From: an uncultured Acidobacteriota bacterium | GTDB taxonomy: Bacteria > Acidobacteriota > Terriglobia > UBA7540 | Direction of reading: 5' to 3' | DNA: 64,000 bases | NCBI GenBank assembly: GCA_963804995.1 | Contig: CAWDSK010000005.1 | Coordinates: 448,001 to 512,000 of the forward strand | Shown: positions 30,759 to 31,676 of the stretch, piece after piece | How positions within the stretch are numbered: the first letter of the stretch is position 1 | Layout of the letters: every line of letters begins with the position of its first letter | Notes under the pieces: generated by a model | The model's input: the letters and a program-made list of their open reading frames with translations, nothing else | Databases searched by the model: none | What the model was told of the DNA's origin: nothing | Position numbers and translations under genes: made by a program

Positions 30759-31676
30759 ATGCGCGCATTGATACCTTTCGTTCTGGGAGCCACACTCATG
30801 GCGGCAAATTCTGCCTCGGGACAGGCGCAAAAAATTCATGTCGGTGAGCCGGCGCCCGACTTCACGGTGCCTGCTTTGGACGGTAAGACCACCTACCGGC
30901 TCAGCGACTTCCGCGGCCATCGCGTGCTCATCTTCAACTGGGCCTCGTGGTGAATGTGCCGCGAAGAACTGCCGGTCTGGCAGAAATTCTACGAAAAGCA
31001 TCATCACGAAAATTTTGAAATCTTCTCGATCTCCATGGACACCCAGGGAGCGGACGTGGCCCGGCGCTTTACCGAGGCGGCGGGCGTGACGTTTCCTTCC
31101 GCTGTCGATCGCGCCCAGGGTTTGTGGGATCTGTACGGATTCCCCGTGGTCCCGAACGGCTTCTTTGTGGATGAGCAGGGCATCCTCCGTTATGTAAAGA
31201 TCGGCGACTTCGACGCCCGGAACCCGGCCGACGCAGGCGCCATCGAACAACTTCTTTCCGCTCCAAGTCAACAACCGGCTGTGCAGCCGGGGAGCGATTA
31301 CACGCGCCCCCTTGCAGATGCGCTGCATCAGGCAGAGGAAGCGTCAAAGCATGACCCGAAGAATCTGGATCTTCGCCTGACGCTGGCGGAACGCCTGGTC
31401 GAGAACAAACAGGATGAGCGCGGGCGGCGCGAATTCCAGGCGGTGCTCGACGTGAATCCCAAATCCACGCGGGCGCTGGTGGGGCTTGCCACCGCCTACC
31501 TTGACCTCGGGCAAAAGGACAAAGCGCTGGCGGCACTCCAGCAGGCGTCAGCTCTCGATCCCGACAACTGGATCATCCACAAACAGATTTGGGCCATCGA
31601 ACACCCCGAGCAGTTCTATCCCGCCATCAACCCCGCATGGCAGCATGAAAGACTGAAGGAAGAGGGGAAAAAGTAG
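30759..31676 (+). CDS. Probable selenoprotein: signal peptide, TlpA/AhpC-like thioredoxin fold (WASW-U-M-C) and TPR; TGA 30951-30953 read as Sec
   Basis: ORFs 30744-30953 and 30954-31676 are in the same frame; GEPAPDF..LDG...LSDFRG...NWASW*MCREELP places the TGA at the catalytic Cys position; SECIS-like hairpin follows. Confidence 0.85.
30963..30989 (+). promoter_or_regulatory. Putative bacterial SECIS element
   Basis: GAA..CTGCC-GGTCT-GGCAG..TTC hairpin with the loop about 21 nt after UGA; resembles E. coli fdhF GCAGGUCUGC. Confidence 0.72.

What the first reader, a model, noticed from the sequence alone, without database searches (positions are those of the whole stretch)
30759..31676. Hidden exported selenoprotein: TlpA/AhpC-like UxC redoxin fused to TPRs, with its own SECIS
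Seen: two ORFs in the same frame joined by TGA 30951-30953, reading NWASW-TGA-MCREELP. A hairpin CTGCC-GGTCT-GGCAG follows, with its loop about 21 nt downstream. Known: TlpA family proteins carry WASWCxxC, so the TGA sits at the catalytic Cys; bacterial SECIS elements lie just 3' of UGA, and the E. coli fdhF SECIS tip is GCAGGUCUGC. Inference: the product is a ~305-aa Sec protein with an unusual UxC (not UxxC) site, an N-terminal signal peptide and C-terminal TPRs, i.e. an extracytoplasmic selenol oxidoreductase that standard annotation would split in two.
Basis: partly seen in the sequence, partly recalled or inferred. Interest (0 to 1): 0.82.

Follow-up and report, generated by a model that had tools for sequence, protein, structure and literature searches.

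The report
Exported selenocysteine redoxin with TPR tail
Two apparent genes joined by an in-frame TGA are one conserved gene that likely makes an exported, selenium-containing disulfide-exchange enzyme, a variant of a bacterial selenoprotein kind predicted since 2008 and still listed as unverified by experiment.

Summary
Observation confirmed. TGA 30951-30953 joins one 305-codon frame (WASW-U-M-C). Of 79 related genomic loci, 77 keep TGA, one has Cys and one Glu. The hairpin behind it pairs fully in all 78 TGA sequences, with synonymous C-G to U-A swaps, so it is very likely a SECIS. The genome has selA, selB, selD and tRNA-Sec. selA and selB each carry one extra base, probably assembly error (22 of 207 control genes do too), but this is not proven. 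The product is a TlpA/ResA-fold protein, one residue short of CxxC, with a likely signal peptide and TPR helices. The 'unusual UxC' is not new: the 'UGC-containing Prx-like/TlpA' family is in print (2008, 2026), and NCBIfam NF041054 is the best hit (140.5 bits, cut-off 300). Its true members also have a helical tail, some a signal peptide. This gene sits in a sister clade that lacks their N-terminal Cys domain and has more TPRs. Best mechanism (inferred): periplasmic disulfide reductase/isomerase with TPR client binding. The scan found this kind before in other genomes. Verdict: real, variant of a known kind.

The parts
30759..31676 (+). Single CDS, 305 aa, Sec at residue 65 (alternative ATG at 30744 adds 5 aa; most orthologues start at the 30759 position)
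   Evidence: dN/dS 0.06-0.07 for residues 24-64 and 0.09-0.10 after the TGA against 4 orthologues
30759..30827 (+). Likely Sec/SPI signal peptide, residues 1-23 (MR, hydrophobic core, G-Q-A then Q); no Cys, so no lipobox
   Evidence: Same pattern in the window and 12 Acidobacteriota orthologues; dN/dS 0.32-0.98; pLDDT <50; SignalP not run
30828..31262 (+). TlpA/ResA-type thioredoxin domain (residues about 24-168)
   Evidence: Pfam; model against ResA/DsbE, Z 19.3-19.8, rmsd 1.8-1.9 over 137-139 residues
30951..30953 (+). UGA read as selenocysteine (U65), at the N-terminal Cys of CxxC
30957..30959 (+). Cys67, likely resolving cysteine of U-x-C
   Evidence: invariant in 32 of 32 aligned sequences
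30969..30983 (+). SECIS upper stem-loop: 5-bp stem, GGUCU loop at 30974-30978
   Evidence: fits the consensus in PMC13188914
31152..31154 (+). Pro132, at the position of the thioredoxin-fold cis-proline (role recalled)
   Evidence: invariant; aligns with the Pro of ResA PLPT
31311..31556 (+). TPR helices (residues 185-266, five helices)
31566..31673 (+). Family-specific C-terminal tail (NWIIHKQIWAIEHP...WQ)
   Evidence: K275, Q276, W278, P288 invariant; related tail in NF041054 members

Best explanation
This is one gene with a conserved in-frame UGA that is very likely decoded as selenocysteine through the hairpin behind it, giving a likely periplasmic TlpA/ResA-fold enzyme predicted to break and reshuffle disulfides in client proteins held by its TPR domain. 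Steps. (1) Shown: one conserved frame, TGA at the nucleophile column, constrained hairpin, Sec genes present. (2) Inferred, about 0.95 for the family and 0.85 for this strain: SelB and tRNA-Sec read the UGA at the SECIS. (3) Inferred, about 0.85: export and cleavage after Ala23. (4) Inferred from fold, about 0.7: the Sec65 selenolate attacks a substrate disulfide and Cys67 resolves the mixed bond. (5) Inferred by analogy, about 0.4: the short U-x-C ring makes it more isomerase-like than a pure reductase, the TPRs pick clients, and CcdA/DsbD recycles it.
For: 77 of 79 genomic loci have TGA, 1 TGT, 1 Glu. 44 of the 45 metagenome loci with the motif have TGA, of 50 fetched, some duplicates. The Cys-form genome has no selA match; 3 of 3 distant TGA-form genomes do. 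The stem is intact in 78 of 78 TGA sequences against 0.27 expected from codon use; 3 carry TTG/CAA double swaps, 10 more in metagenomes plus one U-G, in separate clades. selA, selB and selD pass cut-offs; tRNA-Sec has a UCA anticodon. Model pLDDT 89.5; closest folds ResA/DsbE. One-residue gap against ResA. CxC motifs measure -130 to -200 mV, near isomerases (PMC3173608 passage). DsbD/CcdA and VKOR families are present.
Against: No expression, Se-labelling or activity data. selA and selB each have a +1 frameshift; both by chance is about 1.6% at the measured rate. No Sec formate dehydrogenase was found, so SelD is the only other selenoprotein seen. No redox partner is conserved next to the gene; leuCD precedes it in 5 of 79 loci. 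BCP peroxiredoxins match nearly as well (Z 17.5). Six of 120 listed homologues have Glu at the Sec column, so U/C there is dispensable in one clade. Many TGA relatives lack a signal peptide. Covariation rests on one base pair, and L192 breaks it. The CcdA gene sits beside a different CxxC TlpA gene.
Confidence: 0.6

Rival explanations
1. Same selenoprotein, but a selenol peroxidase or oxidant scavenger (Prx/BCP-like) rather than a protein-disulfide enzyme.
For: The 2008 paper calls the family 'Prx-like'; the best Pfam hit is AhpC-TSA; BCP structures reach Z 17.5; Glu-x-Cys relatives keep only the second Cys.
Against: The top structural and sequence hits are ResA/DsbE/TlpA. The invariant Pro132 is present and no conserved Arg sits at the peroxiredoxin position (Prx hallmarks recalled). 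PrxU model 24.5 bits against cut-off 270.
Confidence: 0.15
2. A dedicated ResA/TlpA-type reductant for cytochrome c or copper-centre assembly, fed by CcdA.
For: Closest characterised folds are ResA, DsbE and TlpA; CcdA/DsbD is present.
Against: No cytochrome c maturation genes were seen among shared neighbours. ResA, TlpA and DsbE cut-offs are missed. The genome has three ordinary CxxC TlpA-like genes. The gene was found in only 6 of 24 same-genus genomes.
Confidence: 0.1
3. A true selenoprotein family, but dead in this strain because Sec synthesis was just lost (real selA and selB frameshifts), so translation stops at the UGA.
For: Both genes carry one inserted base; about 1.6% by chance; no source reads to check.
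Against: 22 of 207 other genes are frameshifted, and 20 of all 23 events are +1 like these, among them one I read as LeuRS (recalled). selA/selB halves show dN/dS 0.08-0.15. selD TGA and tRNA-Sec are intact. All 24 same-genus genomes have selA matches. Five contigs of related populations lack the extra selA base.
Confidence: 0.1
4. Two coupled genes (TGA-ATG stop-start), a nonsense mutation, or a sequencing error.
For: An ATG follows the TGA directly; the assembly is error-prone.
Against: 70 of 78 TGA sequences have no start codon after the TGA. The break splits a thioredoxin active site. The TGA is kept across several phyla. Full-length Cys homologues exist.
Confidence: 0.02

Closest known systems
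[quoted passage not shown]
   Same: PF00578/TlpA fold; Sec at the first Cys with one residue before the second Cys; 52 of 78 TGA sequences here read U-G-C, including near orthologues L010 and L011
   Different: Middle residue is Met here (clade: M/V/T/I/G). The passages and table I read name no signal peptide or TPRs; I did not compare with their representative sequence
NCBIfam NF041054 ResA-like WAxxUGC motif-containing protein
   Same: Best hit (E 7.7e-41); same motif, same hairpin position, related helical region and tail; some members have signal-like N-termini
   Different: 140.5 bits against cut-off 300. Lacks the roughly 75-aa N-terminal domain with KPxGxCxxxxCxP. Longer TPR run. Separate clade (SH-aLRT 100, quick tree)
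ResA / DsbE (CcmG) / TlpA
   Same: Fold (Z 19-20), WxxW-C context, Pro loop, extracytoplasmic
   Different: CxxC rather than UxC; no TPR; usually membrane-anchored (recalled); cut-offs missed
CnoX/YbbN chaperedoxin (PMC8129009)
   Same: Thioredoxin domain followed by TPRs: a redox site plus a protein-binding surface
   Different: No significant sequence similarity (E 0.30); classic PF00085 domain; works with cytoplasmic GroEL; no Sec. Analogy only

Membership tests
Bacterial selenoprotein gene | In-frame UGA conserved, aligning with Cys in homologues | tested here: met
Bacterial selenoprotein gene | SECIS: 3-9 nt loop, 4-16 bp stem, G in first two loop positions, 16-37 nt spacing, MFE <= -7.5 (PMC13188914) | tested here: met
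   5-nt GGUCU loop, 5 bp, 20 nt, -9.7 to -12.8 kcal/mol; bSECISearch itself not run
Bacterial selenoprotein gene | selA, selB, selC, selD in the genome | tested here: met
Bacterial selenoprotein gene | selA and selB intact | tested here: inconclusive
   one +1 insertion each; assembly-error pattern
Bacterial selenoprotein gene | Se shown in the protein | not testable with these tools
   needs 75Se or MS
UGC-containing Prx-like/TlpA selenoproteins | PF00578/TlpA domain with U-x-C spacing | tested here: met
UGC-containing Prx-like/TlpA selenoproteins | Literal U-G-C | tested here: not met
   U-M-C here; U-G-C in 84-86% identical orthologues L010 and L011
NF041054 WAxxUGC_long | Score >= 300 bits | tested here: not met
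   140.5; relatives 130-158
NF041054 WAxxUGC_long | N-terminal Cys-bearing domain (profile 1-75) | tested here: not met
   match starts at profile 77; seen in over-cut-off members L178, L184, L186
ResA / TlpA / DsbE | CxxC motif and family cut-offs | tested here: not met
   82.9/170, 50.5/230, 33/123 bits; one-residue gap
CnoX chaperedoxins | Sequence homology to CnoX | tested here: not met
CnoX chaperedoxins | Holdase activity through the TPR domain | not testable with these tools
   biochemical
Exported protein (Sec/SPI) | n-, h-, c-regions and A-x-A-like site | tested here: met
   manual hydropathy and conservation; SignalP not available

The most novel reading that the evidence does not exclude
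The Acidobacteriota clade is a periplasmic selenium 'chaperedoxin': a Sec-dependent disulfide isomerase whose strained U-x-C ring works well only with selenium (which would explain why Cys forms are rare) and whose TPRs hold unfolded exported proteins. That would put selenocysteine directly into bacterial oxidative protein folding.
Probability: 0.2. Interest if true: 0.65.

Novelty: new variant of a known kind. Interest (0 to 1): 0.3.

Why it matters
It corrects a widespread misannotation: 105 of the 120 listed database homologues lack the active site, and 48 of them start at the codon right after it. It also gives a compact, likely soluble candidate for the first biochemical test of the U-x-C thioredoxin-fold selenoproteins, which a 2026 review still lists as predicted only. 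It is not a new kind of system.

Tried and rejected
Source reads: 11 runs listed, none with half the words and no RNA holder listed, so nothing on expression. Related contigs laid on the gene show no difference at 30951-30953 among the rows shown, but 417 rows were hidden, so I do not use this. Idea 'Sec only in exported forms, Cys/Glu in cytoplasmic ones': rejected; signal-less relatives such as L201-L204 carry TGA. Co-occurrence in relatives is uninformative: all 7 gene-bearing relatives have selA and selB, but 39 of 40 have selA. Cys forms L022 and L200 keep the stem, so they give no negative control. No Rfam hit in the window. No + strand promoter or terminator by consensus scan. CnoX was not among the listed fold hits, which is inconclusive. 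The C-terminal tail drops to pLDDT about 55 when folded without the Trx domain (against 94), but that job had no alignment, so it is confounded. Paper search selenoprotein + tetratricopeptide + TlpA: 0 hits; PMC12013277 and the Haft preprint do not mention UGC or TlpA. Supplements were not read and may list this clade. The tree is the quick version (109 rows, long branches flagged; rows with under 150 residues after the site and most Poribacteria left out). Pair counts used 58 of the 78 TGA sequences.

Full report
Observation. The window reads ...TGG GCC TCG TGG TGA ATG TGC CGC... at 30939-30962. With TGA=U, 30759-31676 gives 305 aa without another stop; table 11 splits it. The hairpin is at 30969-30983 with a GGUCU loop 20 nt after the UGA.

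The TGA is selected. Of 79 genomic loci, 77 have TGA at this column, L022 has TGT and L021 has Glu. They span Acidobacteriota, Poribacteria, Armatimonadota and KSB1 by record title, with Poribacteria the majority. Of 50 metagenome loci, 45 showed the motif: 44 TGA and 1 TGC, with some duplicates. Of 120 listed proteins, 48 start at the codon after the site, 57 lack the motif, and 15 are whole (8 Cys, 6 Glu, 1 Trp). Only 8 of 78 TGA sequences have ATG or GTG next, which removes the two-gene reading. dN/dS is below 0.1 on both sides of the TGA. The genome with the Cys form gave no selA match, while three distant TGA-form genomes and the Glu-form genome did (completeness unknown).

SECIS. The stem is encoded by Leu-Pro-x-Trp-Gln, so protein constraint explains part of it. 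The synonymous positions show the rest: Leu and Gln are CTG/CAG in 75 and TTG/CAA in 3 of 78, never unpaired, against 0.27 expected from each gene's codon use; the Gln just upstream is CAA in 59 of 70. On 58 of these sequences all 290 cells pair and slid controls do worse. Metagenomes add 10 TTG/CAA and one TTG/CGG, in several clades. Limits: one covarying pair, related sequences, modest folding z-scores, and one distant relative (L192) that breaks the outer pair. The hairpin meets all four constraints of the consensus model (PMC13188914 passage).

Machinery. selA, selB, selD (itself with an in-frame TGA) and tRNA-Sec (69.7 bits, UCA anticodon) are present. selA and selB each have one extra base against relatives. 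Controls: 3 of 36 other genes in a first sample and 22 of 207 in a larger one are frameshifted; 20 of the 23 events are +1; one hit gene looks like leucyl-tRNA synthetase (recalled, not scanned). Both genes being hit by chance is about 1.6%, so real decay is not excluded. It is disfavoured by purifying selection on both halves, selA matches in 24 of 24 and selB in 22 of 24 same-genus genomes, and five related contigs lacking the extra selA base.

Protein. Residues 1-23 look like a cleavable signal in the window and 12 orthologues and evolve fast. AlphaFold (Cys for Sec, 32 sequences) gives pLDDT 89.5 and pTM 0.86, with residue 65 just before the active-site helix. Nearest solved folds are DsbE/ResA, with BCP peroxiredoxins 2 Z units behind. 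Alignment to ResA shows W-C-M-C against W-C-K-P-C. The C-terminal part matches TPR arrays and ends in a conserved tail.

Family. NF041054 is the best NCBIfam hit but far below cut-off. In 301 phylum genomes, 20 match and 9 pass the cut-off. Those members have U-G-C, the same hairpin, a short helical repeat, a related tail, an extra N-terminal Cys domain, and in some cases a signal-like start. A quick tree separates them (support 100) from a 93-row group. In that group the window falls in a 19-row clade (99; members with an intact start show the signal), sister to a signal-less clade with Sec, Cys and Glu forms (support 89). Sec looks ancestral and Cys/Glu derived (inference; midpoint root). 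In print: 'Prx-like (UGC-containing)', 46 GOS sequences (PMC2398784 passages), and 'UGC-containing TlpA', listed as predicted (PMC13188914 passages and section 7 part 1). Earlier scan notes reached the same verdict on other genomes; I saw them after my own tests.

Mechanism. From thioredoxin-fold chemistry (established knowledge), Sec65 would be the nucleophile and Cys67 the resolving residue. CxC motifs have isomerase-like potentials: thioredoxin CGC mutant -200 mV, YphP -130 mV (PMC3173608 passage; similar in a 2026 preprint, passages). Selenium would lower the potential (recalled), so the direction is open. Thioredoxin-plus-TPR recalls CnoX (PMC8129009 passages), but without sequence homology. 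DsbD/CcdA and VKOR families exist in the genome; neither is linked to this gene, and leuCD lies upstream in only 5 of 79 loci. I commit to a periplasmic protein-disulfide reductase/isomerase with TPR client binding (0.6), the isomerase bias being the least certain step.

Verdict. Real and well supported as a recoded gene; a variant architecture of a known, still untested selenoprotein kind. Interest 0.3.

Noticed in passing
G000 C9:298251-299595 and C5:338047-339943: selA and selB each carry a single-base insertion; about 11% of tested genes in this assembly are frameshifted, mostly +1, so broken genes in this genome should be distrusted.
   Followed up: yes
window 28438-29859 and 30069-30713 (+): leuC and leuD lie 45 nt upstream on the same strand; the linkage holds in 5 of 79 loci and in one related contig. 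Probably a lineage-specific position, not a functional link.
   Followed up: partly
window 32002-33867 (-): DCC1-like thiol-disulfide oxidoreductase fused to a lipase maturation factor (LMF1), convergent with the gene; not seen near the 79 related loci.
   Followed up: partly
L021:4001-4846; proteins P0066, P0073, P0085, P0086, P0104, P0114: A signal-less clade replaces Sec by Glu (E-x-C) while keeping the second Cys, Arg and TPRs: a possibly non-redox or one-Cys offshoot.
   Followed up: partly
L020:4193-4260: A close orthologue has a frameshift about 21 codons after its TGA; that locus also has a split leuC.
   Followed up: no
L022, L086: Record titles (Akkermansia, Bifidobacterium) look doubtful: both genes group with a Verrucomicrobiota-labelled protein, and L086's genome has selA.
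   Followed up: no
G000 C3:259246-259620 and C3:1512599-1514809: VKOR domain in a 550-codon open frame; CcdA/DsbD gene next to an ordinary CxxC TlpA-like gene.
   Followed up: no
window 25933-27129 (-): 398-aa ORF that resembles an insertion-sequence transposase (recalled); no Pfam hit at 1e-4.
   Followed up: no
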